A DNA stretch of 64,000 nt, taken from positions 3,008,001 to 3,072,000 of the forward strand of contig CM000153.2 in assembly GCA_000004695.1 (NCBI GenBank), given 5' to 3'. This DNA is from Dictyostelium discoideum. Lineage: Eukaryota. Positions 5,770 to 25,867 of this stretch are shown here, piece by piece. Each line of letters begins with the position of its first letter. Positions within the stretch are counted from its first letter, which is position 1. The notes below the pieces were generated by a model. That model had not been told where the DNA came from. It did not search any database and saw only the letters and a program-made list of their open reading frames with translations. The position numbers were made by a program, and so were the translations under genes.

Positions 5770-6452
5770 ATGTATAATATTGAAAATAACAGTATCTTAA
5801 TTGATAATGAAACATTTAGTTATAAAAAAACAATAAGGGATAATAGTATATATAGATCAATAATAATTGGAATTATAATTTTCCTTTTAAATAATTTTTT
5901 GAAGGTAAATAATTTTTTTTTATTTTTTTTTTTTCTTTATTTTTTTTTCATCCTTTCTCACTATTTTTTTTATTTTTTAAAATTAGAATTTCAGTAATTC
6001 AGAGATCGTATTAGGTTTATCGCCTAAATTTAAAATATTATTGTTTATAATTTCATTAATTTCAAGTTTATTTGTTACTATATTAATTTCAAAAACCTGT
6101 AAAAAAATATCATTAATAATTCCATCAATTTTTCTATACTTTTTATTTTTAACAAATTGTTATATTCAATTTCGTCAAGACAATGGCAATGCTAATATAA
6201 CAGGAGAATTAAACCAAAATGGTGATATTAGTACAATTAGTGGTAGTAGTAGTAGTGGCAGTAATATTGATGGCCAATTTAAAAATGATATAAATAAACA
6301 GATATTGGTAACTGTTATCTCAATAGTTTCAATAATCATGTCACCATTTTTCATTCAATATTTTTGGGTATCAACAATCGAATTTATAATTAAAATTTCA
6401 AATCAATCAAATATTGGATTACATTTTGGTATTGTATGTGTCATTTTTATTG

Positions 6453-6488
<36 letters not shown>

Positions 6489-7638
6489 ATTTTTTAATTT
6501 ATTATTATTAAAATTATAGATTTTAGGGTTACCAGATTTTTTAGATTCATTATTTTCATATTTAGTCAAACATTTTACATTAAATAATTATTATGAATTT
6601 GGTTTAATATTTATTATACCAATAATCATTTTAATTTTATTATTAGGTAAAACCAGTATTACTTGTAATAAATTTGATAAAATCTGTTTTGATAGTAATA
6701 GCTTTTTTGATGGAAAGCAAATTCAATATCAACAATATCAACAACATCATCACCACCATCAACAACAACAACAACATCATAATAATCAAATTCAAAATAA
6801 TGAAATACCATTACCAAGATCAATTCAAATAAAAAGTAATCCAATAATTTCAACAATTAAATTAATGAAAAAAAAAGAATTTATTCATATGGTACCAGTT
6901 ATATTATTATATGGGTTTATTGGGAATTGGTTAAATTATGAACTTTTTGATGAAATTATTTTAGGGTATAAAGCATCTACACAATTCATTATAATCTCAC
7001 ATTTAATTAGTAGTTGTTTATGTTTTACAATTTTTGGATACTTTAGTTATAAATTTAAAAGAACTTTAATTATAATTTCAGTTTTATTGGTTGGTATAAT
7101 CGGTTCAGTTATAAATGTTTTAGTCATTTATTATGAAATTGAGCTATTAGAAAAAAATACATCTTTATATTTCTCAAGTTTATTATTCATTCAAATGATA
7201 TACTATTTAATTGGAATTCAAATTTATAGTCATATATCACACTTGTTTGAAGATAAATTCAATTCATTATATTCTTCATCATCGGCATCAGCAACAGCAG
7301 CAGCAGGGGCAGAAATATCATCAGCAATAATATTCTCATCAAATTATTCATTTTTATCATCAGAATTATCAATACCAATACCAGAATTATTTTCATATTA
7401 TTCACCATTATCAATTTCAGCTGCAATTAAATTCACTCAAATATTTGGTAGTTCAATTCTTTACTTTGTTTATAATTGGTCCACTTTTTTCATTAGATTT
7501 ATTGTTTTCATTGTGTTATTAATTATTGGAACTTTAAGTTTCATTCATTCAATTAAACATTTATCAAAGAAAAGTAATCAATTTAAACAATTTTTAATTT
7601 TAAATTCAAATGATGATGAAGAATATAATGGTTTTTAA
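5770..7638 (+). CDS. Predicted polytopic membrane protein of unknown function. Three exons (5770-5904, 5987-6433, 6520-7638), about 567 aa, with a Q/H-rich loop.
   Basis: The three ORF-track segments join in frame. Exon 1 ends at AAG|GTAAAT (5904/5905). Exon 2 runs from aattag|AAT at 5987 to ATT|GTATGT at 6433, which is 447 nt (149 codons). Exon 3 starts after tatag| at 6520 and is in frame with ORF 6865-7638. It has many hydrophobic helices and a QQYQQHHHHHQQQQQHH loop. I found no recognisable conserved domain. Confidence 0.45.
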
Positions 7639-7671
7639 TAATAAAAAAACCATTGTTTATTTGTATAAAAA

Positions 7672-8490
7672 AAAAAAGATTTAAATTATTTTTGTTAAAT
7701 AGTTTTATTTTATTATTTTTTTATTGTTTTTTATTTTTTTTTTAAAAACATTACTACTTATAATAACATCTTATTATAATAACTTATTAAATCTGTTTGG
7801 GTGGCGAATCATGTTTTTATCTTGATCATAAGGGCATCAGTTCTAACATTGGGGAATGATTTGTTTTCTACTTGAGTTTGGGATAACAAAATGAATGTAT
7901 ACCTAAATTTCCATAATCATTGTTAAAGAAATCTTGTGAATTTGGTACTGCATTCAATAGAGATCACCTGAACCAATAAACGTTTGACATTTGTTATTTA
8001 AGAAAGTATAATAACATTTGGTAATGGTTTTACAATATAGGGGCATGGGGATCCAATGACAGATCTCCAAAAAAGAAAAAGCCCAAGTAAATTGACCGCG
8101 CTGGTAACTTTGTCACCCCTCACTGGCAGCTGGACATTATCACTATTCCTTACTATCAACCTATCTCCACATTACTTTCTATTGGCAGTGAATGGGAGAT
8201 ACAGGAGGACAGGATAGCCACTGGTATAGTTAATCTTACTTAGGAGGCTTCATTTGGAATAAGTATTACCATTTGCGTTTGTTACTTGACTCATTAGTTT
8301 AATGACATTAACAATTTTGTTAAAAAAATATAATTAAAAAATGAAAAAATTCTAAAACCAATAGACTAAGGTAGATAAACAAAAAAAAAAAGATTTTAAA
8401 TAATTTAAATAATTTTATTTGTATGTTTTTTTTATATTTTTTTTTTATTTCATTTTTAAACATTACTACTAATAATAACATTATCAATAA
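7672..8490. repeat. A roughly 610-bp GC-richer non-coding segment (7776-8387) bracketed by about 100-bp imperfect direct repeats (7672-7775 and 8388-8490). It is a candidate transposon or solo-LTR-like remnant.
   Basis: Left copy: aaaaaaaaaaagatttaaattatttttgttaaatag...ttttttttttaaaaacattactacttataataacat. Right copy: aaaaaaaaaaagattttaaataatttaaataatttt...tttcatttttaaacattactactaataataacat. The interior is about 40% GC, has no ORF longer than 60 aa and no internal repeats. The composition is foreign to the surrounding sequence, which is 80-85% AT. Confidence 0.4.
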
Positions 8491-8788
8491 ATCTATGAAA
8501 TATATTTGAATAGAATATTTCAATGGTTATATTATCATTTCCAGGGAAATATTTTTCATCTCTATAAACTAAATAAAATCTAAGAGGTATTTTATTATTA
8601 TATAACTCATCATTAAATATTTTTATTTCTTTTTCTATTTTTTTATACTATTTTGTTTGTTTTTTGTTTTTTAAAATAAAATAAAATTTTAAAGATATAA
8701 ATTAATATCTTATTTTAAATCTAATAATAAAATAAAAAAAAACCACTCTTTTTTTTTTTATTTTTTTATTTTTTTTTTTTAAATGTGT

Positions 8789-9454
8789 TTAAAAACTTAC
8801 TATTCTCATTCTTCTTGAATCAGATAGAAATAAGAAAAATAAAATTGCGCAAAAACCAACCCATATAATACAAAAAATCACAAATGATCCTAATGGGTAG
8901 ACATATGATAAACCAAAAGTAACACCAGGAGATGTAATTAATATAATTAGTACTATTATTAATACTATATTATGAGTGGTTGGATCGTGTAATCTATTTA
9001 AACTTTTAATAAATCTATTGTAATCTCCTTGTGAAATTAAATTCGATATTTCTCTTGGAACTCTACTACGATTTTTTTGAAAATATTCTCTAACACTACC
9101 ATGAACTTTTAATTCCACCCTTTTATATTGTTCTTTATATAAATTATATATACTAATTTTATTTACATCTATTATTGGCTCAATATTATTATTTAAATTA
9201 TTATTATTATTATTATAATTAATTGAATTATTATTTATTGAACTATCTAAACTTTTATTCATTAAATCATTATTTGGCTTTAAAATTGTATCATGACTTT
9301 TACTAATACTATTATTTAAATCGTTACTTATAATACTATTATTTATATCGTTATTTGAATTTTCATTATGATTTATATTATTATTTATATTATTATTATT
9401 AATTCCTATATCACTTAATTTTTTTTCATCAATCATGGTGATTTCTTTTATCAA
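8789..9454 (-). CDS. Small Asn-rich two-TM protein, paralog 1 of a local three-gene family.
   Basis: It has a long N-rich N-terminus. The conserved juxtamembrane block RVPREISNLISQGDYNRFIKSLNRLHDP is followed by two hydrophobic helices. It shares this architecture with the ORFs at 10468-10983 and 11759-12199. Confidence 0.5.
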   Translation of the reverse strand: MIKEITMIDEKKLSDIGINNNNINNNINHNENSNNDINNSIISNDLNNSISKSHDTILKPNNDLMNKSLDSSINNNSINYNNNNNNLNNNIEPIIDVNKISIYNLYKEQYKRVELKVHGSVREYFQKNRSRVPREISNLISQGDYNRFIKSLNRLHDPTTHNIVLIIVLIILITSPGVTFGLSYVYPLGSFVIFCIIWVGFCAILFFLFLSDSRRMRIVSF

Positions 9455-10467
9455 GAAAAAAAAAAAAAAAGGTTTTCCTTTTTTTTTTTTTTTTTTTTTA
9501 TAATTTATAAATATTATTATTTATTATTATTTTGTTATAAATATTTATAATTAATAAAAAATAAATTTTAAAAATAAATTTTAAAAATAAAAAAAAATAA
9601 ATTAAAAAGAATATGAAACACAATTATATTTTTTAATTATTTTTATTTTTTTTATTTTTTTTTATATAACAATTATAAATTTATATTGAGAGTCTTTTTA
9701 AATAATAATTAATTTAAATATTGTGAGTGTAATTTAAATTATTGCACAATAAAAAAAAAATTATAATTATTTTCAAATTGTAAAATATCAAAAAATACTT
9801 TTTTAATTTTTTCACACACAAACACTATCTCTCATTTTGTCTTTGTTTTTTTTTTTTTGTACTTGGTGGTAGTGAAATTTAAAAAAACAAATAAAAATAA
9901 ATAAAAAATAAATAAAAAAAAAAAAAAAAAAAAAAATTAAAAATTACAAAAAATAATTGTATTATATCTTGTTGGCCACGCCCACATAAATTATATATAT
10001 ATATAATATATATTATAATTTATATATATATATAATTATTTTGCGATTTATATTGTTTTTCAATATTATACAACCACGTGACCTGTAAAATCCAACATAT
10101 CATTTCTTATATATATATTTTATAAAAAAAAAATGAAACATAGGTTTATTTTTATATTTATAATTTTTTATTTGTGGTGATAGTAATTTATCATAGATAG
10201 AGATATATATCATACAAAAATGTTTATTTTATTTTTTATACTTTTATTTATTTTTTGTTTTTATTCATTTATAAAAGTAACTTCAATTGAAATTTTATCA
10301 AAACCAGGTACAACATGATTCTCTTTATAAATTAATCTGAATAAAATAGGTATTTTTTTATTTATTAAAAAGGAATTATAATTTAAAATAATTTCTTCAA
10401 TTTTATAATTCTTTTTTTTATATAATACAAAATATGTTAATATTACTATATTTATAAATAAAATAAA

Positions 10468-10983
10468 TTATTTAAAATTTATACAAACAATTCTTTTTTC
10501 AATTAATCCATTGGTTAAAATAAATATTGCAATATAAAATAATAAAGTTAAACAAATTCCAAATGCAAGTCTAGGTGAAAATGTGAATACTATAAAGAAT
10601 AACGGAATAATCAATATCATTGATAATATCATTAAAATTAACATTATTTGATAATAAATAGGTAATCTTTTATTATTTATTTTAACAATAAATTGTTTAT
10701 ATAATTCTTCCTCAACAATTAAATGTTGGATTTCATTTGGTATTTCATTTGAAAAATAATTTTTATATGTCCCATTTGGTTGGATTTCAAATGTTAATAT
10801 ATTATTTTCATTTATACTTTCATTAAAACTACTTTTTAAACACTTTTTAATAGAACTATTACTATTATTATTATTATTATTATTAATATTATTTTTATTA
10901 AAAACTATAGTATTTTTTATTTCAATTTCACAAATTTGGTCTTTAATATTTAAATTTTGGTTTTCTGTGATTAAGTTATTCAT
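10468..10983 (-). CDS. Small Asn-rich two-TM protein, paralog 2.
   Basis: The block IPNEIQHLIVEEELYKQFIVKINNKRLP is followed by two TM helices. It is on the same strand as its neighbours and in the same order. Confidence 0.45.
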   Translation of the reverse strand: MNNLITENQNLNIKDQICEIEIKNTIVFNKNNINNNNNNNSNSSIKKCLKSSFNESINENNILTFEIQPNGTYKNYFSNEIPNEIQHLIVEEELYKQFIVKINNKRLPIYYQIMLILMILSMILIIPLFFIVFTFSPRLAFGICLTLLFYIAIFILTNGLIEKRIVCINFK

Positions 10984-11559
10984 TTATTATTTTAATTATT
11001 ATTAGAAATAGAATTTTTTTATTTTTTTATTTTTTTTTATTTTTTTTTTTTAAAAATAATAAAATATAATAAATGGATTTAAAATAATTTTAAATATTAT
11101 TGGTTTGAATGTCATATATATTTACATTCACCATTTATTTGTTCAATTAATATTTTAAATAAAAAAACAAATAAATAAAAAAAAAAAAAACACTAAAAAT
11201 TTTAACCCCTAAATCCATGTATCATTTAAAAATAAATGTTATCATTTTTTAATGTTACCATTTTAATTTTATTGTTAATTTATGATTGGATATTTTAATT
11301 TCCAATTGTTCATATTTTATATTCATAATCATAATAAATTCTATATACCGGTTGTACTCTTTAAATTCAAAAAAGTTTGTTAAATATTGAATGATTACAT
11401 TCTAACTCCTCTTATTTACTATTATGGTCTATCTTTTATATTTATAATTATAAAAATATTTTTTAATCTCATTTTTTATAAATTAAATAAAATATAGCAA
11501 TAAACTGCGGTTGAAAAATCAAAAATAAAACCAATGATATTGAAATTTAGAAATGTAAT

Positions 11560-11659
11560 NNNNNNNNNNNNNNNNNNNNNNNNNNNNNNNNNNNNNNNNN
11601 NNNNNNNNNNNNNNNNNNNNNNNNNNNNNNNNNNNNNNNNNNNNNNNNNNNNNNNNNNN
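11560..11659. other. Assembly gap of 100 N, which is an unknown-size scaffold gap.
   Basis: A run of exactly 100 N characters. Confidence 0.99.
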
Positions 11660-11758
11660 TCCAATTCAATTTGGTCATCCTTTTTTATATTTTAATATAT
11701 TTTATGTTTTTAGTATTTTTACTTTTAAATTTTATTATTATTATTATTTTTATTAATA

Positions 11759-12199
11759 TTATTTAATAAAATTATCAAAACAAACATTTTTATTTCTATA
11801 TCCTGAAAAAATTAAAAAACATGTAATAAATACTGGGATGGCTCCAAATGGTATAATATAATATAGAGAATGATTTTTAAAAACTAAAAAAAAAACCAAT
11901 GGGAAAATTAAAATTGTTGTTATGAATATTAAAATTATTAAAATAAAAATATATTTTGGATGAATTAGTTTATTTATTTTTTTAATAAATTCATAGTATC
12001 TATTAGGATTTATTAAATTTGAAATTTCTTTTGGAACATTTTTATTAAAATTATTAAAAAGCTTCGTTGAGCTTTTAAGTATTATAATTTCTTCTTCATC
12101 ATTTATTTTATTTTCGCTAATATAATTATTATTATTAATATTTGTAGTTTTATTATTATTATTATTATTATTATTAATATTATTTTTATCAACAGACAT
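11759..12199 (-). CDS. Small Asn-rich two-TM protein, paralog 3.
   Basis: The block NVPKEISNLINPNRYYEFIKKINKLIHP is followed by two TM helices. It is the member most similar to paralog 1 in the conserved motif. Confidence 0.5.
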   Translation of the reverse strand: MSVDKNNINNNNNNNNKTTNINNNNYISENKINDEEEIIILKSSTKLFNNFNKNVPKEISNLINPNRYYEFIKKINKLIHPKYIFILIILIFITTILIFPLVFFLVFKNHSLYYIIPFGAIPVFITCFLIFSGYRNKNVCFDNFIK

Positions 12200-12237
12200 T
12201 CCTATTTAACAATAAATATTAAATTAAAACTTTAAAT

Positions 12238-12294
<57 letters not shown>

Positions 12295-12688
12295 TAAAAT
12301 TTATGGGGGTAGAAAAAAATTTTGAAAAAAACCAATTAAAAATGGATCCTTAAACAATAATTTTTTTTTTTTTTTTAAATTCAAAAAATTTTTTAATTTT
12401 CTTTTAATTTTGGAATAAGTTAAAAAAATTTTTTTTTTTTTAGTTTTATTTACTAATTTATTTATTAAAAAAAAAATAAAAATAATAATAATAATAATAA
12501 AATTTTTTGGGTTTTTTTATTTAAAAATTCAATAAAATTTTTAATTTTAATTTTTTTTTTTCAACCTCCCCACCATAAAAAAAGATTATTTTAATTTTTA
12601 TTAAGGAGCACCGGCTGGGAATTTTTTTTTTTTTTTTTTTTTGAGTCATTAAAAAAAGTGTATTTTCATTTTTTTTTTTTTTTTTTTT

Positions 12689-14478: not shown

Positions 14479-16536
14479 ATGATGGAATTAGGATTTGAAA
14501 ATGATATTGATTTATTAAATCAATATCAAACAATTCAATCAAGAAAAACAAAAGATTATAAAAAGTTTTTAGAAATTAAACAAGAGAATAAGAATCAACA
14601 TTTAGATATTATCTCATCATTTTGGGATGTAATTGTTATTACTGCTATTGATTCACTTCAAAAGGAATACTATGAGCAAGTATTAAAAGAAAAGATGAAT
14701 CAAAATCAAATTCCATCATTTATACCTTACGTTGTAATTTCTGATCCAGTTGGTGAAAAAATAGGTTGTGGTGGTTCAACCCTTTATGTTTTAAAAACAT
14801 TATCAACAATATTTGGTGATGATAAAATTAAAAATAGTAAGTAATAATAAATAATAAATAATAAATAATAAATAATAAATAATAATAATAATGCACATAT
14901 TAATATCTTTCAAAATAAAGTGAAAATATTATTATTACATGCTGGTGGGTATAGTAAAAGATTACCAAATCATTCAACAACTGGTAAGATATTTGCATCA
15001 ATACCATGTACACTTGGAATGGGTGGAAATAATAATAATAATAATGATGACGAAGATGAATCAAAATTACAAGCATGTTCAATGTTAGAAATTAAATTAA
15101 TAATATTAATTGATATACCAAAGAGAATGAAACCAGGTGTATTCTTAGCATGTTCAGATGATATTGAATTATTTGAATCAAATGAAATGTCTTTCAATTC
15201 AAGTGAAGATGGTACATTCATTGCATTATCTCAACCTGGTACATTGGATATTGGTGTTGGACATGGTGTTTTCATTCTTGATGATGTTAATCAGTATAAA
15301 CCAAATCAATTAAATTCATGTAGAAAATTCATTCATAAACCATCAAAAGAGAAAATGAAAAATGAAAATGCTATACTTTCAAATGGTTTAGTTTTAATGG
15401 ATAGTTGTTATTATTTCGATCATAAAGTTTTTTCAATTTTATTAAATTATTATAATCAAAATAATCCAATTAATTGTGAAATTGATGCATATTCTGATTT
15501 TTTACAAGTAAGTAATAATAATAATAATAACTAATATTATTTATATTATCGTTAATATTAATATTATTATTTTTATTTATTATTATTATTGATTTAGCCA
15601 TTAGGTAAAAGTGCAGAACCAAATTATTTTCAAGTTAAAAGTAATGTTACAAAATTTTTACCACATTTACCAAAAGAAAGAGAAAAGATATATAACTTTT
15701 TAAATTCAAATAAATGTAAATTAGAAATGATACCAATGTCACCATCTGCATTCATTCATATTGGTACATGTCATGAATATATTGAACATTTTACAATCAA
15801 TTTCCCAAAATTAGGTTTTAAGAATTTAATTTTCTCTGAAATTGGTAGTGGGATTAATAATAATAATAACAATAATAGTGTTATTTTACATTCAATATTA
15901 TTAAATAATTTAAATACAATTATTAATGATAATAGTGTAATTGAATATTGTAATTTTAAAGGAATTAATAAACTTTCAATTGGTAATAGATGTATAGTAT
16001 CAGATTTAGAATTTGAAAATTCTAATGAACAGCAACAACAACAGCAACAACAACAGCAACAACAACAACAACAACAACAAACATTATCGTCATCAAATTA
16101 TTCAATTGAAATACCATCAAATTCATTCATTCAAACACTTTCAATTAGTTGTAATAGATATGTTACAATATTCTTTGGTATTGATGATGATTTAAAATCA
16201 ACTACAAATCCAAAATTATTTGGTATTCCTTTAAAAGATTATAATTTAAATTCAATTAATACTAGTGATGATAATAATAATAATAATTCACTTTGGAATG
16301 CACCATTATTTCCAATTTCAAATATTTCTCCAAAAGATTCACTTTTAAAAACTTTAAATAGTTTACAAAAAACAAAACAAACAAACTTTTTTTCAAATAA
16401 TGAACAACAACCCCAACAACAACAACAATCATATTATTCAATTGAACAATGTTTAAATGAAAAGGATTTATCAAAACAATTTATTAGAAGATCAAATTTA
16501 ACAAATGAAATTTTAAATTTAAAAAATAAAAAATAA
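14479..16536 (+). CDS. fpgt: Fucose-1-phosphate guanylyltransferase (GDP-L-fucose pyrophosphorylase, salvage pathway). Three exons: 14479-14836, 14921-15507 and 15598-16536.
   Basis: It aligns with human FPGT: FWDVIVITAIDSLQKEYYEQ matches [41 protein letters not shown] matches [47 protein letters not shown] matches ILLIHSGGYSQRLPNASALGKIFTALP, and CEIDAYSDFLQ matches CEIDAYGDFLQ. Splice sites are A|GTAAGT (14836/14837), aaag|TG (14921), CAA|GTAAGT (15507/15508) and tttag|CCA (15598). Confidence 0.8.
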
Positions 16537-19527: not shown

Positions 19528-20793
19528 ATGAAAAATGATTTATATACATTCGGAAAGAAAAATTATATACTCAACAATTTATTTAGGAGTTTAGGAGAAA
19601 TAAAGAAAATTAAAGATGATTTACAAATTGTTAGATTAACTATGAATTGCCAGAAAATTAATATTATTGATATTAAATGCACTAATGATACTTTATTTAT
19701 ATTATTTTCAAATGGTGAATTTATTTGTAAAAGAATGATTCCAACATTATCTATAAATGAAATAACATCACCAATAAAAATTTTAAAAATATCATCAGGT
19801 TATAATCATTTTCACCTTTTATCAATTGATAATAAATTATATGGATTAGGTGACAATAGTTTTAATCAAATAGGTTTTAATAATATTAATATTAGTAATA
19901 ATAATTGGTATGAAAGAATAAAACAAGTCGAATATTTTAATGAAATTAATTTAAAGATGGTATCATCTGGTGGTAGACATCATTCAATATTTATTGGTAT
20001 TGATGGTAGTGTATATTCTTGTGGTTCAAATAAATATAATCAATTAGGAAGAAGAACAACTAATGGGGAAAATGAAACAACTCATAATATTGAAAAATTA
20101 GAAACAACTATTCTATTCGATAATTGCTCGTCAGGTGATCATCATAATTTATTAATAGCAACTAACGGATTAGTATATGGTTTCGGTTTAAACTCACATG
20201 GTCAATTAGGTATAATTACAAATTATAATGTAAAATTACCAATTTCAAATAATAAAAATGAAAATGATAATAATAGTAATGAAAATGATAATTATGGTTA
20301 TTCTATTAAACTATTAACATTATTAGAAACATTAAAAGATGAACATATAGTTGAAGTTAGATGTTCAATGTGGCATAGCATATTATTATCAAAGAAGGGT
20401 GAAGTTTTCACATTTGGCGAGGGATCTTCATTTCAATTAGGTCATGGTGATAATATCTCTTATCAAACCCCTATTCTCGTTGATGAATTATCTGAAAATA
20501 ATTTTAAAATTAATTCAATATCTTGTTCAACTAATTCATCTTTATTTTTAGATAATCAACATAGAGTATTTTATTGTGGAGATAATTTCATTTCACAAGA
20601 TTTTGAATGTAATAATCAAGATAACCAAAATTACAGCTATGATGGGGATGATGAGGATGATGATGATAATGATAATGATTGTAGTAATAAAATCGAAAAT
20701 CCAACACCTTTAACTCAACTTATACAAACATTGGATTTTTCTCCTCCAAATAATATCTACACCCATAATTCAAACTTTAACTTTATGTGGTAA
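19528..20793 (+). CDS. RCC1 (regulator of chromosome condensation) repeat-containing protein.
   Basis: At least five RCC1 blades carry the signature YGLGDNSFNQIG, YSCGSNKYNQLG, YGFGLNSHGQLG, FTFGEGSSFQLGHGD and FYCGDN. The ORF ends ...NFMW, where the TGG/TAA overlaps a GTAAGT, so a further 3' exon is possible. Confidence 0.65.
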   Translation: MKNDLYTFGKKNYILNNLFRSLGEIKKIKDDLQIVRLTMNCQKINIIDIKCTNDTLFILFSNGEFICKRMIPTLSINEITSPIKILKISSGYNHFHLLSIDNKLYGLGDNSFNQIGFNNINISNNNWYERIKQVEYFNEINLKMVSSGGRHHSIFIGIDGSVYSCGSNKYNQLGRRTTNGENETTHNIEKLETTILFDNCSSGDHHNLLIATNGLVYGFGLNSHGQLGIITNYNVKLPISNNKNENDNNSNENDNYGYSIKLLTLLETLKDEHIVEVRCSMWHSILLSKKGEVFTFGEGSSFQLGHGDNISYQTPILVDELSENNFKINSISCSTNSSLFLDNQHRVFYCGDNFISQDFECNNQDNQNYSYDGDDEDDDDNDNDCSNKIENPTPLTQLIQTLDFSPPNNIYTHNSNFNFMW

Positions 20794-21252
20794 GTGTTTA
20801 CTTGGAAAAAAGCTATATAATTAAATAAAAAAATAAAGATTGATAAAAAAAAACCCATCATTAATTGGTCGAAGGATACTATGTTTGGAAGCACTGGTAT
20901 ATAATAAGCTTTGAAAGTGAATTTTCTTAATTTAGTTATTTGTTTGGATTTTTAAATTGCTCGGATCTTTTGAAAGAGTTAATTTTAAATTTTTGCATTT
21001 TTTTATATATTTTAAAGAGGCCAGTTTGTGCCATTTACTAAGCAGAGTCGAGAATGAGAGCTTTTGGGCTCATTACGATAAAATCGATTACAGTTCCAAA
21101 CCCAGATGTTATGAATTATTAATGTAGTTATGTTTCTATACAGAGTTCTTGATAGGTCATGAAATTGGAATCCAAGATTATCCCTAACCGACAAACAAGT
21201 TTATTAATAAAACAAGAATCGAACCTGTGATCTCTTTAAGAAGTTTAAAAAT

Positions 21253-21324
21253 CTCCCTGTCCGGGAATTGAACCCGGGCCTTTCGCGTGACAGGCGAAAA
21301 TCCTCACCACTAGACCAACAAGGA
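21253..21324 (-). tRNA. tRNA-Asp (anticodon GUC), with an external B box about 40 bp downstream.
   Basis: The minus-strand sequence is TCCTTGTTGGTCTAGTGGTGAGGATTTTCGCCTGTCACGCGAAAGGCCCGGGTTCAATTCCCGGACAGGGAG. It has an A box (TGGTCTAGTGG), a B box (GGTTCAATTCC), an anticodon loop CTGTCAC and a 7-bp acceptor stem with G-U pairs. About 35-45 nt downstream, on the tRNA strand (plus-strand coordinates 21211-21229), lies ACAGGTTCGATTCTTGT, a B-box-like element (ex-B). Confidence 0.9.
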
Positions 21325-21505
21325 TATTTGATATTTTTTTTAAAAAAATAGACAGAATCGTTTAATTAAATTTTTTTAAAAAAAAAATCACAAAGGATAT
21401 CCAACAAAAGAAAAAAACCAATCCAAAAGGTATTGTGAAGCCCTCGATTAAAAATAGAAAATAAAAGTTATCATCTAAAGTATAAAGTTTAATAAATGGT
21501 TTTAT

Positions 21506-24100
21506 TTACAAGAAATTGTTGTTGTTATTATTATTATTAATATGAACTTGTTGGTTGTTGTGATGAGAATTAAAAATTTGTTTATATTTTAATTCCAAAT
21601 GTTTAGTAAAATTTAAATTATCACAAAGTGGGGAATTAATCATTAAATTTCTTAGATTACTTCTAAAGAATATTAATTTATCGATATCTCTTGACAAAGC
21701 CAAAGCGATTTCAACATATTGACCATGATTGTAGGCAACCAACTGAGGTAGATTTAGTGTATGTAAAATTGATTTACCCACATTATTACAATGATAAGAA
21801 GGTGTTGATAGTGAAACCGTTGGAACACCCATCCAAAGTGATTCACAAGTTGTTGTAGTACCAGCGTATGGAAAAGTATCTAAACTAATATCCAACATCT
21901 GGCTATAATATTGAAGATGATCTTTTTGATGAGAAAATAAACCAACCAAATCCACCTGATTCAAATTGAATCCAAATTTAATTAATCTCTTGCTAAATGA
22001 TTTCTTTGTATCTTCACAAGCGAATGGTTTACTCTTTAATAATAATCTTGTTCCAATTGGTGATCTATCCAATATTAATTTCCAACAATTTAAACATTTA
22101 TCACTATATTTAGCCATAACATTAAATGATCCAAATGTAATATAACCATTCTTTAAAAATGGTGGTGGTGGTGGTAATGGTGGTGGTGGTGGTAGTGGTG
22201 GTGGTGATGGTGACGGTGGTGATATATTATCATTTGATGATGATGCTGCTGAAATTGGTGGGAAATAAGTTAAAAAACATTGTGGCATTCTAATTAAAGT
22301 TTCAGTGAATTGTTGTTTTGTATCTAATGGATCAACTATTGAATCTGTTATTCTATATTGAATAGTTTTTAAACCTGTTGTATTTGGATAACCAATGTAT
22401 GATATTTGAATTGGTGATGGTTGTAATGCCATAACATCCATTCTATTACCACAGGTATGACCTGACAACTCTACCAATATATCAACTTGATCATCCTTTA
22501 TCAATTGAACTACCTCCATTGTAGGTTTACCAGTTATATGTCTCCATTCATGACCATATGATTTTAATCTTTCAGTTGTAGTATCTTGTTTAGAAATATT
22601 TGAATAACATATAATTTTAAATTCTTCCTTATTATGAAATTTTAAAATTCCTTCAATAAAATAACTAACTGAATGTATAAAAAAATCACCTGAAATATAA
22701 CCAATAATTAATTTATCTTTTTTTTTAATTATTCCATTATTATTATTTATGTTATTATTATTACTATCAATACCATATTTTAAATTTAAAGAATTTAAAA
22801 ATGATTGACCCCATTGTTGGTGAATTTCATAAATTTGTGAATAATTAAATTCTGTTGAATAATTTAATGCCAATAATTTATTATGTTGAGCATTTAAAGA
22901 ATTTGTTGGTGAACATTGAATACATTTTTCATAACTTTTGATCGATTGAGAAATTTTACCAATATCACGATAAACTACACCAAGATTATTATAAGCATCG
23001 GCATATGTTGGTGATTCTTTAATTGCAAGTTTAACATATTTTTTTGCTAATTTCATCTTTCCTTGCATTGTATAAATAATTGCTAAATTACTTAAACTTT
23101 GAGAGAATGATGGATTCGATTTTAATGCTAATTGATAATAGTGTATTGATTGTTCAATATTATCAATATCTTTATATAATACACCTAAATTATTTAAAGC
23201 TTCAACATATTGATTATTATTATTATTACTATTATTTTTATTATTTATTTCATTAAAATGAATTGCTAATTCATAATTCATAATTGATTTTTCAATTTGT
23301 TTTCTTTCACTAAATAATACGCCTAAATTATAATAAGTACCTTCATATTTGAAATTATAATGTAATGATTTTTTATAGAATTCTTTAGCTAAATCAATTT
23401 CACCATTCAATTTAACTTTTGTACCTAAATCGTTATATGCTATCGCTATATTATTCTTTACAAGTGAATAGTTTGGATTGATTTGTAGGGCACGTTTATA
23501 ATATTCTATACTTGTTTCAATTTCACCAAGATTCTTTCTAATTACACCAATATTACATAAAACCTCTGGATAATTTGGATTTAATAATAATGCTTTTGAA
23601 TAACTTTCCAACGCCAATGAATATGAAATACCCTCTTCATAGAATACAACTCCCATATAAAATAATGCTGTTGAATTCTTTACATTTGATCTACTTGCAA
23701 GATAATACATTTTCAATGCATCAATCATTTTTTTCTTTTCTCTAAATTCTGTACCAACTTCAATTAAAAATTCATCAATTTTAATAATTTCATCATTACT
23801 AACCTGACTACTACTACCACTACCACTACTACTATTATTAATTATTTTAATTTCAATTAATTTATTTAAAAAACTAATAATTTCATTATTATAAATACTA
23901 TTATTTAAATCATTATTATTATTATTTAAATTATTATTATTAATATTATTTTCATTTAGTTTAACAATAATAAAACTATTAACTATATTATTTTTTTTAT
24001 TTTCTTTATCATTGGTAATTTCATCCTTTTTAATAATTTCAACATTTACTGAATTTGGATTGTCATGGATTATTATATCATAACAAATTTTAATTTGCAT
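21506..24100 (-). CDS. TPR-repeat glycosyltransferase of family GT41 (SPINDLY/OGT-like; likely a nucleocytoplasmic O-fucosyl or O-GlcNAc transferase). 864 aa.
   Basis: The N-terminal half holds about 9 TPR repeats with the YYNLG / NLGVLY / YNNLGVVY pattern. The C-terminal half matches the GT41 catalytic domain: LIIGYISGDFFIHSVSYF matches SPY/OGT RVGYVSSDFGNHPTS, and continues with ...MPQCFLTYFPP...FGSFNVMAKYSDKCLNCWKLIL...FPYAGTTTTCESLWMGVPTVSL. A proline-rich insert (SPPSPSPPPLPPPPPLPPPPPF) sits between the N- and C-lobes. Confidence 0.75.
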   Translation of the reverse strand: MQIKICYDIIIHDNPNSVNVEIIKKDEITNDKENKKNNIVNSFIIVKLNENNINNNNLNNNNNDLNNSIYNNEIISFLNKLIEIKIINNSSSGSGSSSQVSNDEIIKIDEFLIEVGTEFREKKKMIDALKMYYLASRSNVKNSTALFYMGVVFYEEGISYSLALESYSKALLLNPNYPEVLCNIGVIRKNLGEIETSIEYYKRALQINPNYSLVKNNIAIAYNDLGTKVKLNGEIDLAKEFYKKSLHYNFKYEGTYYNLGVLFSERKQIEKSIMNYELAIHFNEINNKNNSNNNNNQYVEALNNLGVLYKDIDNIEQSIHYYQLALKSNPSFSQSLSNLAIIYTMQGKMKLAKKYVKLAIKESPTYADAYNNLGVVYRDIGKISQSIKSYEKCIQCSPTNSLNAQHNKLLALNYSTEFNYSQIYEIHQQWGQSFLNSLNLKYGIDSNNNNINNNNGIIKKKDKLIIGYISGDFFIHSVSYFIEGILKFHNKEEFKIICYSNISKQDTTTERLKSYGHEWRHITGKPTMEVVQLIKDDQVDILVELSGHTCGNRMDVMALQPSPIQISYIGYPNTTGLKTIQYRITDSIVDPLDTKQQFTETLIRMPQCFLTYFPPISAASSSNDNISPPSPSPPPLPPPPPLPPPPPFLKNGYITFGSFNVMAKYSDKCLNCWKLILDRSPIGTRLLLKSKPFACEDTKKSFSKRLIKFGFNLNQVDLVGLFSHQKDHLQYYSQMLDISLDTFPYAGTTTTCESLWMGVPTVSLSTPSYHCNNVGKSILHTLNLPQLVAYNHGQYVEIALALSRDIDKLIFFRSNLRNLMINSPLCDNLNFTKHLELKYKQIFNSHHNNQQVHINNNNNNNNFL

Positions 24101-24998: not shown

Positions 24999-25867
24999 TT
25001 TTTTTTATTTATTATCTATTTATGTTCCTTGTTCAAAAAAAAAAAAAAAAAAAACTTTTAATATTTTCAAAAAAAAAAAAAAAATAAAAAAAATAAAAAT
25101 AAAAAAATAAAAAAAAAAAAAATTAAAAAAAAAATCATAAAATTTATTTGAAAACTATGGGTTCAGATAAATGCCTTTTTCATTTTATTTTTTTAAAAAA
25201 ATACCAAACAATTACAAAAAAATAAAAATGATTAATAAAAATAAAAAAAAAGGATAATAATAATAATAATAATAATATTAATGGATATGGAAATTGTGTT
25301 TTGGTATAATTATTTTAAATTAAATTAAAAAAAAAAATAAAAAATAAAAAAAATAAAAAAAAATAATAATATTAAGAAAAAATTAAGAAAAAATAATAAA
25401 AATCCCATATAATTATTTTTTGATTGTTTCACTCCTCAATTTATTTCCTGAAAAATAACATTATTAATCGGGGGAAGCCGTTGATGTTGAACAAATACAG
25501 ACTCCAGTATATACATCGGACTTTGAATTCCATTCGGATTATTCTAGTCCTGTCGTAACGCCGGGCCCGTTTAAATAACGTAGCTTTAAAAACAAATATA
25601 GCATCAACTCTATACTTCCCCTTTTTATTTAAAAAAAATTAATTTTAATGGATAAACACTGATAAATCAATATAAATATAATTAATATCCAAAAAAAAAA
25701 AAAATTTTAATGGATAAACACTGGTAAATCAATATAAATAAAAAAATAAAAAATTTGTCTGATTAGTATCAAACAATAGAAATTGAGTGTTAATTATAAG
25801 ATCTTCTTATTTTTGTTGATATTATTTAAATTATTAATTTTATTTTTATTTTTATTTATTTTTATTT

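What the first reader, a model, noticed from the sequence alone, without database searches (positions are those of the whole stretch)
7672..8490. Compositionally foreign 600-bp segment bracketed by about 100-bp direct repeats
- A non-coding block of about 40% GC (7776-8387) interrupts sequence that is over 80% AT.
- It is flanked by two roughly 100-bp direct repeats that are about 85% identical. Each repeat ends ...ttttttttttaaaaacattactac(t)taataataacat.
- The architecture (long terminal direct repeats, no ORF) resembles a solo-LTR, a TRIM-like element or a recombination footprint of a Dictyostelium retroelement.
- It lies in the 3' intergenic region between convergent genes (3' ends at 7638 and 8789).
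Basis: seen in the sequence. Interest (0 to 1): 0.5.

Follow-up and report, generated by a model that had tools for sequence, protein, structure and literature searches.

The report
Old GC-rich insertion with duplicated gene end
A 581-bp GC-rich, non-coding block sits between two convergent Dictyostelium genes, flanked by two copies of one gene's last 130 bp. It looks like a very old one-off insertion whose source I could not identify, and it changes far faster than the surrounding DNA.

Summary
The central observation is real. A 581-bp block (7800-8380; 34% GC, peak 45%) lies between 133/128-bp direct repeats, R1 (7667-7799) and R2 (8381-8508), about 80% identical and well above chance.

The window is D. 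discoideum AX4 chr4:3,008,001-3,072,000. The repeats are not LTRs. R2 is the last 17 codons, the stop and the 3'UTR of the minus-strand gene DDB_G0285249. That gene's second exon (8456-8647) is missing from the AX4 model, so its 3' end is 8456, not 8789. R1 is a decayed copy 28 nt after the stop of DDB_G0285225.

The layout fits one insertion into a roughly 100-bp spacer with a roughly 130-bp target-site duplication. Two lineages about 4.5% divergent carry the same structure, so it is old.

The block has no ORF, no Pfam or Rfam match, no fold signal, no covariation and no promoter element. It is absent from a published lncRNA catalogue.

It is the fastest-diverging stretch in 29 kb: 19-24% overall and 30-50% centrally, against about 5% expected. 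Its GC stays at 44-45% in all lineages. A control GC island at 25469-25626 is 97% conserved.

Source and genome copy number are untested. I read it as an ancient insertion relic. The hypervariability is unexplained.

The parts
5770..7638 (+). DDB_G0285225, a 566-aa multi-pass membrane protein (context). Its stop codon is 7636-7638 and its 3' flank runs into R1.
   Evidence: ORFs. Spliced model rebuilt. It is the exact protein in the collection as ACTFIT_005969, and the AX4 protein DDB_G0285225 (566 aa) is in the same 90% cluster.
7667..7799 (.). R1, the left direct repeat (133 bp, about 10% GC). It is a decayed duplicate of the 3' end of DDB_G0285249 (last 17 codons, stop and 3'UTR, antisense).
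   Evidence: Alignment to R2. The reading frame is broken by indels. Orthologues in L004/L005 carry a 26-nt deletion.
7800..8380 (.). The core: a 581-bp GC-rich non-coding insert of unknown source.
   Evidence: GC profile. No ORF over 53 aa. No Pfam, Rfam or tRNA match. Single copy in the window. Present in ACTFIT, ACTFIR and ACTFIW assemblies.
7800..7985 (.). Left lobe of the core (33% GC), moderately diverged between lineages (81-85% identity).
7986..8214 (.). Hypervariable centre of the core. It comprises an AT-rich linker (7986-8029) and the GC peak (8030-8214). The 211-nt stretch 8015-8225 is 44% GC in AX4, 45% in ACTFIR and 45% in ACTFIW. Divergence is 30-50% with many indels.
   Evidence: It is the top 100-nt window of 1149.
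8215..8330 (.). Right conserved block of the core (about 90% identity).
8311..8380 (+). A-rich, AT-rich tail of the core, abutting the A11 run that starts R2. It is compatible with a decayed 3'UTR or poly(A) of a plus-oriented retroposed insert. In ACTFIR/ACTFIW it reads ...AAATAAATAAATAAAAAAA.
   Evidence: This is weak evidence because A-runs are common in this genome.
8381..8455 (-). Non-coding part of R2, the 3'UTR of DDB_G0285249.
   Evidence: It is 83% identical between lineages.
8456..8508 (-). Coding part of R2: the stop codon (8456-8458) and the last 17 codons (SNIFHRFIDNVIISSNV) of DDB_G0285249.
   Evidence: 53 of 54 nt are identical between AX4 and ACTFIR/ACTFIW.
8456..9436 (-). DDB_G0285249 in its corrected two-exon form (275 aa). 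Exon 1 is 8801-9436, the intron is 8648-8800 (GTAAGT...AAATAG) and exon 2 is 8456-8647. It is the first of three tandem paralogues.
   Evidence: Exon 2 has homologues in both paralogues.

Best explanation
This is the relic of a single ancient insertion.

Before the event, the convergent genes DDB_G0285225 (+) and DDB_G0285249 (-) ended about 100 nt apart: 28 nt of spacer plus one copy of R.

A piece of GC-rich non-coding DNA or cDNA of about 580 bp was then joined into a break whose two strands were cut about 130 nt apart. Filling in the overhangs duplicated the target, which was the last 17 codons, the stop and the 3'UTR of DDB_G0285249.

The copy still attached to the gene (R2) stayed under selection in its coding part. 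The other copy (R1) decayed and now follows the stop of DDB_G0285225.

The most likely route is target-primed reverse transcription of an RNA in plus orientation. The evidence for this is the A-rich tail running into the A11 that starts the duplication. Capture of a DNA fragment during repair of a staggered break is nearly as good.

The insert itself appears to do nothing that constrains its sequence.

Shown: the anatomy, the host origin of the repeats, the age, and the lack of coding or structural signal.
Inferred: the insertion mechanism and the lack of function.
Unknown: the source of the insert and why it diverges so fast.
For: Layout:
- R-core-R, with a compositionally foreign core and host-like repeats.
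- A tandem duplication would need two cores. The core has no similarity to the rest of the gene or to anything else in the window.
- R2 is the 3' end of DDB_G0285249, so the repeats are target, not element.
- Removing the core plus one repeat shrinks the stop-to-stop distance from 817 nt to about 103 nt.
- Both repeats start with the same A11GATTT, and the core ends in a 70-nt A-rich tail.

Age:
- The structure is shared by AX4/ACTFIT, ACTFIR and ACTFIW.
- R1 copies group with R1 (85%), R2 with R2 (90%), and R1 vs R2 is 78-81%. It is one event, older than the split of these lineages.

No sign of function in the core:
- No ORF in any lineage.
- No 3-base periodicity of substitutions.
- No Pfam hit and no Rfam hit.
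- Folding z about 0 on both strands.
- No covariation.
- No DUSE promoter element.
- No entry in the rRNA-depleted developmental lncRNA catalogue at chr4:3,015,667-3,016,508.
- Least conserved stretch of the region.

Host residence:
- The dinucleotide signature (CpG 0.31) matches the host, so it is not a recent foreign import.
Against: - The source of the insert was not found, so 'insertion' rests on anatomy alone.
- A 130-bp target duplication is unusually long. I know of no report of one in Dictyostelium.
- The known D. discoideum non-LTR elements that could supply the machinery integrate next to tRNA genes (PMC5633606). None lies within 13 kb.
- A-runs are everywhere in this genome, so the 'poly(A)' junction is weak evidence.
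- A neutral relic should diverge at about 5.4% given its composition. The core shows 19-24%, and 30-50% in the centre, while keeping 44-45% GC in three lineages. Simple neutral decay does not explain this.
- The lncRNA catalogue removed models contiguous with a neighbouring gene. Read-through transcription of the core is therefore not excluded.
Confidence: 0.45

Rival explanations
1. The core is a copy of an uncatalogued multi-copy, non-autonomous mobile element. Its excess divergence comes from ectopic gene conversion with other, diverged family members. The repeats are still a target duplication.
For: - Divergence is mosaic: conserved ends (81-90%) and a nearly unalignable but still homologous centre.
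- The excess appears in two independent comparisons. AX4 vs ACTFIR is 30-50% in the centre. ACTFIR vs ACTFIW is 3-9% in the centre against 0-1% in the flanks.
- GC content is kept while the sequence turns over.
- There is no ORF, as in non-autonomous elements.
Against: - There is no second copy in 64 kb or in the fetched loci.
- There are no terminal inverted repeats.
- Known D. discoideum elements avoid gene-dense arms away from tRNA genes.
- Genome copy number could not be measured.
Confidence: 0.2
2. The core is a functional, rapidly evolving non-coding locus: a lineage-specific RNA gene, or a terminator or insulator between the two convergent genes. Selection keeps its GC content, and the flanking duplication is incidental.
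For: - GC stays at 44-45% in three lineages despite heavy turnover, in a genome whose non-coding DNA sits at about 14% GC.
- Short blocks are perfectly conserved, for example AATGTATACCTAAATTT and ACTTAGGAGGC.
- The ACTFIR annotation places exons in the core.
- The core sits where two convergent transcripts must terminate.
Against: - No promoter element, terminal stem or T-run terminator. The control ncRNA-like island at 25469-25626 has all three.
- No fold signal and no covariation.
- Not in the lncRNA catalogue, whereas the control island is.
- The control island is 97% conserved and the core 76%.
- The ACTFIR exons give a junk-like peptide that is interrupted by stops in AX4.
Confidence: 0.15
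3. The unit R1-core-R2 is an LTR-type element (TRIM-like or a degenerate LTR retrotransposon).
For: - Two direct repeats of about 130 bp flank an internal region without an ORF.
- TGG follows R1 and a purine-rich run precedes R2.
Against: - R2 contains the conserved coding end of a host gene.
- No TG...CA termini and no short target duplication outside the repeats.
- The candidate primer-binding site does not match tRNA-Asp.
- The repeats have host intergenic composition.
- The repeat motif has no further copy in the window.
- Not near a tRNA gene or centromere.
Confidence: 0.04
4. The GC-rich block arose or is maintained in place by a local mutational or recombinational process, such as a GC-biased gene-conversion hotspot or a break-prone site between convergent genes. 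The repeats stem from an unrelated small duplication.
For: - Divergence peaks sharply at 8040-8160 and falls off on both sides.
- It exceeds the neutral expectation about 3.4-fold in the core as a whole (BLAST alignment) and about 5-fold in the centre, at A/T as well as G/C sites.
- GC is kept at a similar level in all lineages.
- GC-to-AT and AT-to-GC differences are balanced, 21 vs 22.
Against: - It does not explain why the block is bracketed exactly by the two repeat copies.
- GC-biased conversion alone is not expected to raise rates 5-10 fold.
- Only eight polarisable changes were available.
- I know of no report of such hotspots in Dictyostelium.
Confidence: 0.1

Closest known systems
Target-primed (LINE-mediated) retroposed insertions with long target-site duplications, for example L1-mobilised retrocopies. 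In Dictyostelium the TRE5/TRE3 non-LTR elements use this mechanism (PMC5391098).
   Same: - A foreign insert flanked by a direct duplication of the target.
- An A-rich 3' end abutting a duplication that itself begins with an A-run.
- No coding capacity.
- A single event fixed in the lineage.
   Different: - The duplication is about 130 bp, far longer than is usual for such insertions (my own knowledge, not checked here).
- No tRNA gene lies nearby, although all TRE elements target tRNA genes.
- No source RNA or element was identified.
- The insert diverges much faster than a neutral relic should.
Filler-DNA or captured-fragment insertions at repaired double-strand breaks, such as organelle-DNA or cDNA capture in yeast and plants.
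   Same: A unique insertion of unrelated DNA at a break, which can be flanked by duplicated target if the break was staggered.
   Different: - No donor was found.
- The composition excludes the AT-rich mitochondrial genome (about 27% GC, from memory).
- No rRNA match.
TRIM elements, solo LTRs, and the Dictyostelium LTR elements Skipper and DGLT-A.
   Same: Direct repeats of about 100-130 bp around a short internal region with no ORF.
   Different: - The repeats are host gene sequence.
- No TG...CA ends, no short target duplication and no matching primer-binding site.
- The genomic location is wrong for these elements.
Dictyostelium small non-coding RNA genes, which appear as GC-rich islands with an upstream DUSE element.
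   Same: A GC-rich island in AT-rich non-coding DNA.
   Different: - No DUSE, no terminal stem, no terminator, no fold signal and poor conservation.
- The island at 25469-25626 in the same window shows all of these features.

Membership tests
LTR retrotransposon / TRIM / solo LTR | The terminal repeats are element sequence (U3-R-U5), not host genes. | tested here: not met
   R2 holds the stop codon and last 17 codons of DDB_G0285249. These are spliced to exon 1 through a canonical intron and are 98% conserved between lineages.
LTR retrotransposon / TRIM / solo LTR | The repeats begin with TG and end with CA. | tested here: not met
   R begins AAAAAAAAAAAGATTT and ends ...TTTG.
LTR retrotransposon / TRIM / solo LTR | A 4-6-bp target-site duplication lies immediately outside the two repeats. 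| tested here: not met
   The left flank is ...TTGTAT and the right flank is AATAGA.... The same holds in ACTFIR/ACTFIW.
LTR retrotransposon / TRIM / solo LTR | A primer-binding site complementary to a tRNA 3' end follows the 5' repeat. | tested here: inconclusive
   TGGCGAATC follows R1 but does not match the 3' end of the window's tRNA-Asp. It is changed in ACTFIR (TGGTGAATA). Other tRNAs were not available.
Known D. discoideum retroelements (TRE5, TRE3, DGLT-A, Skipper, DIRS-1) | Integration next to a tRNA gene or in centromeric clusters (PMC5633606). | tested here: not met
   The nearest tRNA gene is at 21253, about 13 kb away. The locus is chr4:3.016 Mb of 5.45 Mb in a gene-dense stretch. 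I did not check where the chr4 centromere lies.
Known D. discoideum retroelements (TRE5, TRE3, DGLT-A, Skipper, DIRS-1) | Sequence similarity to the family consensus. | not testable with these tools
   No Dictyostelium repeat library or whole genome could be searched. No reverse transcriptase, integrase or gag domain appears in six-frame translations.
Target-primed retroposed insertion | A direct duplication of the target flanks the insert. | tested here: met
   R1 and R2, 133/128 bp and 79-81% identical, are of host origin.
Target-primed retroposed insertion | A poly(A) or A-rich 3' end abuts the 3' copy of the duplication. | tested here: inconclusive
   There is a 70-nt A-rich tail plus A11 at 8311-8391. 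R1 starts with the same A11, and A-runs are common in this genome.
Target-primed retroposed insertion | An identifiable source transcript or element exists elsewhere in the genome. | not testable with these tools
   There is no access to the whole genome. There is no match in the 64-kb window.
Structured non-coding RNA gene | A match to a described family or a thermodynamically unusual fold. | tested here: not met
   Rfam gave nothing at E up to 10 in AX4, and only U7 (E=0.5) and snoR14 (E=4.7), both far below their gathering scores, in ACTFIR. Folding z-scores ran from -0.9 to +0.3 for the whole block and its lobes, and from -2.4 to +1.7 across all sub-segments tried; the lowest was a 71-nt piece, 8030-8100 plus strand.
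Structured non-coding RNA gene | Compensatory base changes between related sequences. | tested here: not met
   The RNAalifold covariation term was +5.9 on the plus strand and -0.2 on the minus strand, despite 24% divergence. Only three sequences were available.
Dictyostelium DUSE-type ncRNA gene | The upstream element [AT]CCCA[CT]AA about 60 nt before the RNA. | tested here: not met
   There is no match within 12 kb of the block.
Intergenic lncRNA (Rosengarten et al. 2017 catalogue) | A transcript model at the locus. | tested here: not met
   There is no chr4 entry between 2,979,078 and 3,033,323, and the locus is 3,015,667-3,016,508. Caveat: models contiguous with a neighbouring gene were filtered out.
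Recent horizontal transfer or contaminant (bacterial, plasmid, phage) | Similarity to prokaryotic or viral DNA, or a foreign dinucleotide signature. | tested here: not met
   No match in plasmids, phages or E. coli. No exact 22- or 27-mers in metagenome or prokaryote genome contigs, and no exact 27-mer in viral contigs. CpG is 0.31, as in host DNA. The block is present in four assemblies.

The most novel reading that the evidence does not exclude
The block is not junk. It is a functional locus that keeps a high GC content while its sequence turns over 5-10 times faster than neutral DNA.

One possibility is a fast-evolving lineage-specific non-coding RNA. Telomerase RNA, still unidentified in Dictyostelium (PMC6592521), evolves in this way. 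However, I found no convincing template for the A-G(1-8) repeat.

Another possibility is a recombination or GC-biased conversion hotspot in one of the most AT-rich eukaryotic genomes.
Probability: 0.08. Interest if true: 0.75.

Novelty: new variant of a known kind. Interest (0 to 1): 0.35.

Why it matters
If the reading is right, this is a rare insertion in a gene-dense arm of the D. discoideum genome away from tRNA genes and centromeres, which are the only places known retroelements are tolerated. It also shows a very long target duplication that rescued the interrupted gene by copying its C-terminal end and 3'UTR.

The work corrects the AX4 model of DDB_G0285249, which lacks its second exon.

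The unexplained part is the more interesting one. A complex, GC-rich non-coding sequence diverges several-fold faster than neutral DNA yet holds its GC content. That would bear on mutation bias, gene conversion or RNA evolution in an extremely AT-rich genome. As it stands the finding is of modest interest.

Tried and rejected
Structured RNA:
- Rfam at permissive thresholds gave nothing useful.
- ARAGORN, including relaxed settings, gave only artefactual calls.
- Box C/D motif scan gave no credible pair.
- DUSE scan found nothing nearby.
- Folding of the whole block and its lobes, and consensus folding, gave no signal; one 71-nt sub-segment reached z -2.4.

Coding remnant:
- Six-frame Pfam scan gave nothing.
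- Six-frame tblastn against the window gave nothing.
- A six-frame search of the large protein collection gave nothing. That tool is unreliable here: it also failed to return the identical 566-aa protein for an exon query (P0011 found).

Decayed fourth paralogue:
- The core shows no similarity to the rest of DDB_G0285249 beyond shuffles.

Foreign or contaminant DNA:
- Nothing in plasmids, phages or E. coli.
- No exact k-mers in public collections.
- The host-like dinucleotide signature argues against it.

Bacterial-type gene:
- A perfect TTGACA-17-TATAAT lies at 7984-8012, followed by GGGGA-ATG and a 53-aa ORF.
- I rejected it because that stretch is deleted in ACTFIR/ACTFIW and the ORF is not kept.

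Third repeat copy:
- The match at 10989-11103 is only AT-rich resemblance.

Leftward extension of the repeats into the end of DDB_G0285225:
- Weak and not convincing; I did not test it against shuffles.

Telomerase RNA:
- I found no C/U-only template of more than 6 nt by reading the sequence. This was not pursued further.

Literature:
- A search for core k-mers returned nothing.

More distant orthologues:
- DDB_G0285225 has no detectable relatives outside D. discoideum.

Full report
**1. What is in the sequence**

The region 7600-8800 holds a block of raised GC. In 100-nt windows GC is 27-36% over 7750-8100 and 41-45% over 8050-8250. The surrounding DNA is 9-13% GC.

Its 200-nt peak (8026-8225, 44.5%) ties for third to fifth highest in the 64-kb window. 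The other top windows whose context I checked lie in long ORFs or the rpl17 exon. The longest ORF in the block is 53 aa.

Gapped alignment shows direct repeats R1 (7667-7799) and R2 (8381-8508), with score 113-121. Only 6 of 2948 random pairs of equally AT-rich 130-mers from the window reach 113. The 24-nt motif AAACATTACTACTWATAATAACAT has just these two copies in the window, against none expected.

The repeats are 79-81% identical. The core between them is 7800-8380, or 581 bp.

**2. Where the window comes from, and what the repeats are**

Exact protein look-ups place the window in Dictyostelium discoideum AX4 chromosome 4. The genes include anapc4 (DDB_G0285223), DDB_G0285225, DDB_G0285249 and DDB_G0285255.

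A supplementary table of Rosengarten et al. 2017 (PMC5295588) gives DDB_G0285261 at chr4:3,027,528-3,028,793. This is the 1266-nt ORF at window 19528-20793. A window position x is therefore chr4 x + 3,008,000, and a second gene end agrees.

The plus-strand gene DDB_G0285225 stops at 7638.

The minus-strand gene DDB_G0285249 is annotated in AX4 as a single exon of 215 aa ending at 8789. A newer assembly of a near-identical strain (L001, 99.85% identity) annotates 275 aa. I rebuilt that model in the window itself:
- exon 1: 8801-9436
- intron: 8648-8800 (GTAAGT...AAATAG)
- exon 2: 8456-8647

Exon 2 has clear homologues in the two tandem paralogues and is 97-98% identical between lineages.

R2 therefore consists of 75 nt of 3'UTR, the stop codon (8456-8458) and the last 17 codons of this gene. 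R1 is a duplicate of that gene end, with its frame broken. It begins 28 nt after the stop of DDB_G0285225.

**3. Related loci**

Walking through protein identifiers, I fetched the orthologous interval from two further assemblies labelled D. discoideum: ACTFIR (L004) and ACTFIW (L005). Compared with AX4, ACTFIR (L004/L002) differs by 3.7% in ORFs and 4.5% in aligned non-coding DNA; ACTFIW is similarly divergent.

The interval is collinear, and R1, the core and R2 are all present. R1 copies group together (85%) and R2 copies group together (90%). R1 vs R2 is 78-81% in every genome. The duplication therefore happened once, before these lineages split.

**4. What the core is not**

| Hypothesis | Result |
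|---|---|
| Described RNA family | No Rfam match at E up to 10 in AX4. ACTFIR gave only sub-threshold U7 (E=0.5) and snoR14 (E=4.7) hits |
| tRNA or tRNA-derived | None found |
| DUSE-type ncRNA gene | No DUSE nearby |
| Box C/D snoRNA | No credible motif pair |
| Thermodynamically stable fold | z near 0 for the whole block and its lobes on both strands; -2.4 for one 71-nt piece |
| Conserved RNA structure | Three sequences at 24% divergence give no covariation |
| Known protein domain | No Pfam domain in six-frame translations |
| Conserved ORF | None in any lineage |
| Coding substitution pattern | No codon periodicity |
| Copy of something else in the window | No similarity |
| Plasmid, phage or E. 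coli DNA | No match |
| Exact k-mers in public collections | None |
| Foreign dinucleotide signature | CpG is 0.31, as in the host |
| Catalogued lncRNA | No chr4 model between 2,979,078 and 3,033,323 |

The lncRNA result has a caveat. That study removed models contiguous with a neighbouring gene.

**5. A control in the same window**

Another non-coding GC island, 25469-25626, looks like a real small RNA gene:
- a DUSE-like element about 60 nt upstream
- paired 5' and 3' ends
- a T-run after the RNA
- folding z of -2.6
- overlap with a catalogued transcript
- 97% identity between AX4 and ACTFIR/ACTFIW

The finding's core has none of these properties.

**6. The unexpected part**

The core is the least conserved stretch of the region.

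| Segment | Ungapped identity, AX4 vs ACTFIR |
|---|---|
| Coding exons | 96-98% |
| Intron | 94% |
| 5' flank | 92% |
| R1 | 92% |
| Core, all | 76% |
| Core, left lobe | 81% |
| Core, right block (8215-8330) | about 88-90% |
| Core, centre | divergence 30-50%, many indels |

I calibrated on 6940 aligned non-coding sites outside the locus. Divergence there is 8.3% at G/C sites and 3.9% at A/T sites. A neutral sequence of the core's composition should therefore differ by about 5.4%. Observed divergence is 18.5% in the conservative BLAST alignment, and it is raised at A/T sites too.

The centre is the most divergent of 1149 sliding 100-nt windows in 29 kb, at 33.7% against a median of 3.0%. The same excess appears between ACTFIR and ACTFIW: 3-9% in the centre against 0-1% in the flanks.

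Yet the centre has 43.6%, 44.6% and 45.4% GC in the three lineages. GC-to-AT and AT-to-GC differences are balanced, 21 vs 22. Only eight changes could be polarised, too few to decide whether GC is being held or lost.

**7. Interpretation**

The R-core-R layout, with host-derived repeats and a foreign core, is most simply one insertion with a long target-site duplication. A tandem duplication would need two cores. An LTR element would need repeats that are element sequence.

Before the event the two stop codons were about 103 nt apart. They are now 817 nt apart.

The duplication preserved an intact gene end (R2) for DDB_G0285249 and left a spare copy (R1) behind DDB_G0285225.

The A-rich tail of the core runs into a duplication that starts with A11. 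This fits target-primed reverse transcription in plus orientation. It is weak evidence in this genome, and capture of DNA at a staggered break fits almost as well.

All known D. discoideum retroelements sit at tRNA genes or centromeres (PMC5633606). The nearest tRNA gene is 13 kb away. This is not an ordinary member of those families. Whether the core derives from one of them could not be tested.

The absence of any coding, structural, promoter or conservation signal argues that the core is not a gene.

The rapid divergence with stable GC is not explained by neutral decay. Candidate causes are ectopic conversion with other copies of a repeat family, a local mutational or recombinational hotspot, or selection on composition rather than sequence. 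I could not separate these.

**8. Verdict**

- The LTR/TRIM reading is not supported. The broader idea of an insertion footprint is.
- I file this as a new variant of a known kind (insertion with target duplication), of modest interest.
- One puzzling feature, hypervariability at constant GC, deserves the checks listed under next steps.

Noticed in passing
window 25404-25626 (+): A probable small non-coding RNA gene with no Rfam family. It is a GC island of 41% GC. It starts GGGGGAAGCC and ends CUUCCCCUUUUU, with paired ends, and folds with z = -2.6. A DUSE-like TCCCATATAA lies about 60 nt upstream. It is 97% identical in ACTFIR/ACTFIW. It overlaps the catalogued lncRNA CUFF_1722_1 at chr4:3,033,323-3,033,776, which is called on the minus strand.
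   Followed up: partly
window 8456-9436 (-): The AX4 gene model of DDB_G0285249 (215 aa, ending at 8789) appears truncated. A canonical 153-nt intron and a second exon (8456-8647) give 275 aa. This matches the newer ACTFIT annotation and is homologous to the second exons of both tandem paralogues.
   Followed up: yes
window 10250-12364 (-), including N-run 11560-11659: Two further tandem paralogues of DDB_G0285249 lie here. The window has a 100-N assembly gap inside the third one, which AX4 lists as 'DDB_G0285301, partial'. The second has no AX4 protein in the same 90% cluster as the ACTFIT protein.
   Followed up: partly
window 7984-8012 (+), 8050-8068: A perfect bacterial sigma-70 consensus (TTGACA, 17 nt, TATAAT) lies inside the core, followed by GGGGA-ATG and a 53-aa ORF. 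BamHI and BglII sites are 7 nt apart nearby. The promoter-like stretch is deleted in ACTFIR/ACTFIW and the ORF is not kept, so this is chance.
   Followed up: yes
L004 11208-13183 (+), equivalent to window about 7890-9436 (-): The ACTFIR annotation extends the DDB_G0285249 orthologue to 350 aa. It splices from just before the normal stop, across the 3'UTR, into the core. The added peptide is cysteine-rich and junk-like, and the frame is closed in AX4. This is probably an annotation artefact, but it could reflect read-through transcripts.
   Followed up: partly
L005 about 14520-14575, equivalent to window about 8021-8060: The ACTFIW version of the core centre carries five G3-4 runs (GGGAAAAAGGGAGGACAGGCAGGGAACAGGGTGGGG). 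This is a possible G-quadruplex motif. ACTFIR has a shorter form and AX4 only GGGGCATGGGG. The ACTFIR-ACTFIW differences, including a 14-15-nt indel, cluster here.
   Followed up: no
window 20945-21514, around tRNA-Asp 21253-21324: The flank of this tRNA gene does not align at high stringency between AX4 and ACTFIR. ACTFIR has an extra 133-aa gene call there. This may be a lineage-specific insertion next to the tRNA gene, where Dictyostelium retroelements are known to land.
   Followed up: no
window 25640-25740 (+): An imperfect duplication of about 55 bp (TTAATGGATAAACACTG(A/G)TAAATCAATATAAATA, the two copies separated by A-rich sequence) lies just downstream of the RNA-like island. It is conserved in ACTFIR/ACTFIW.
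   Followed up: no
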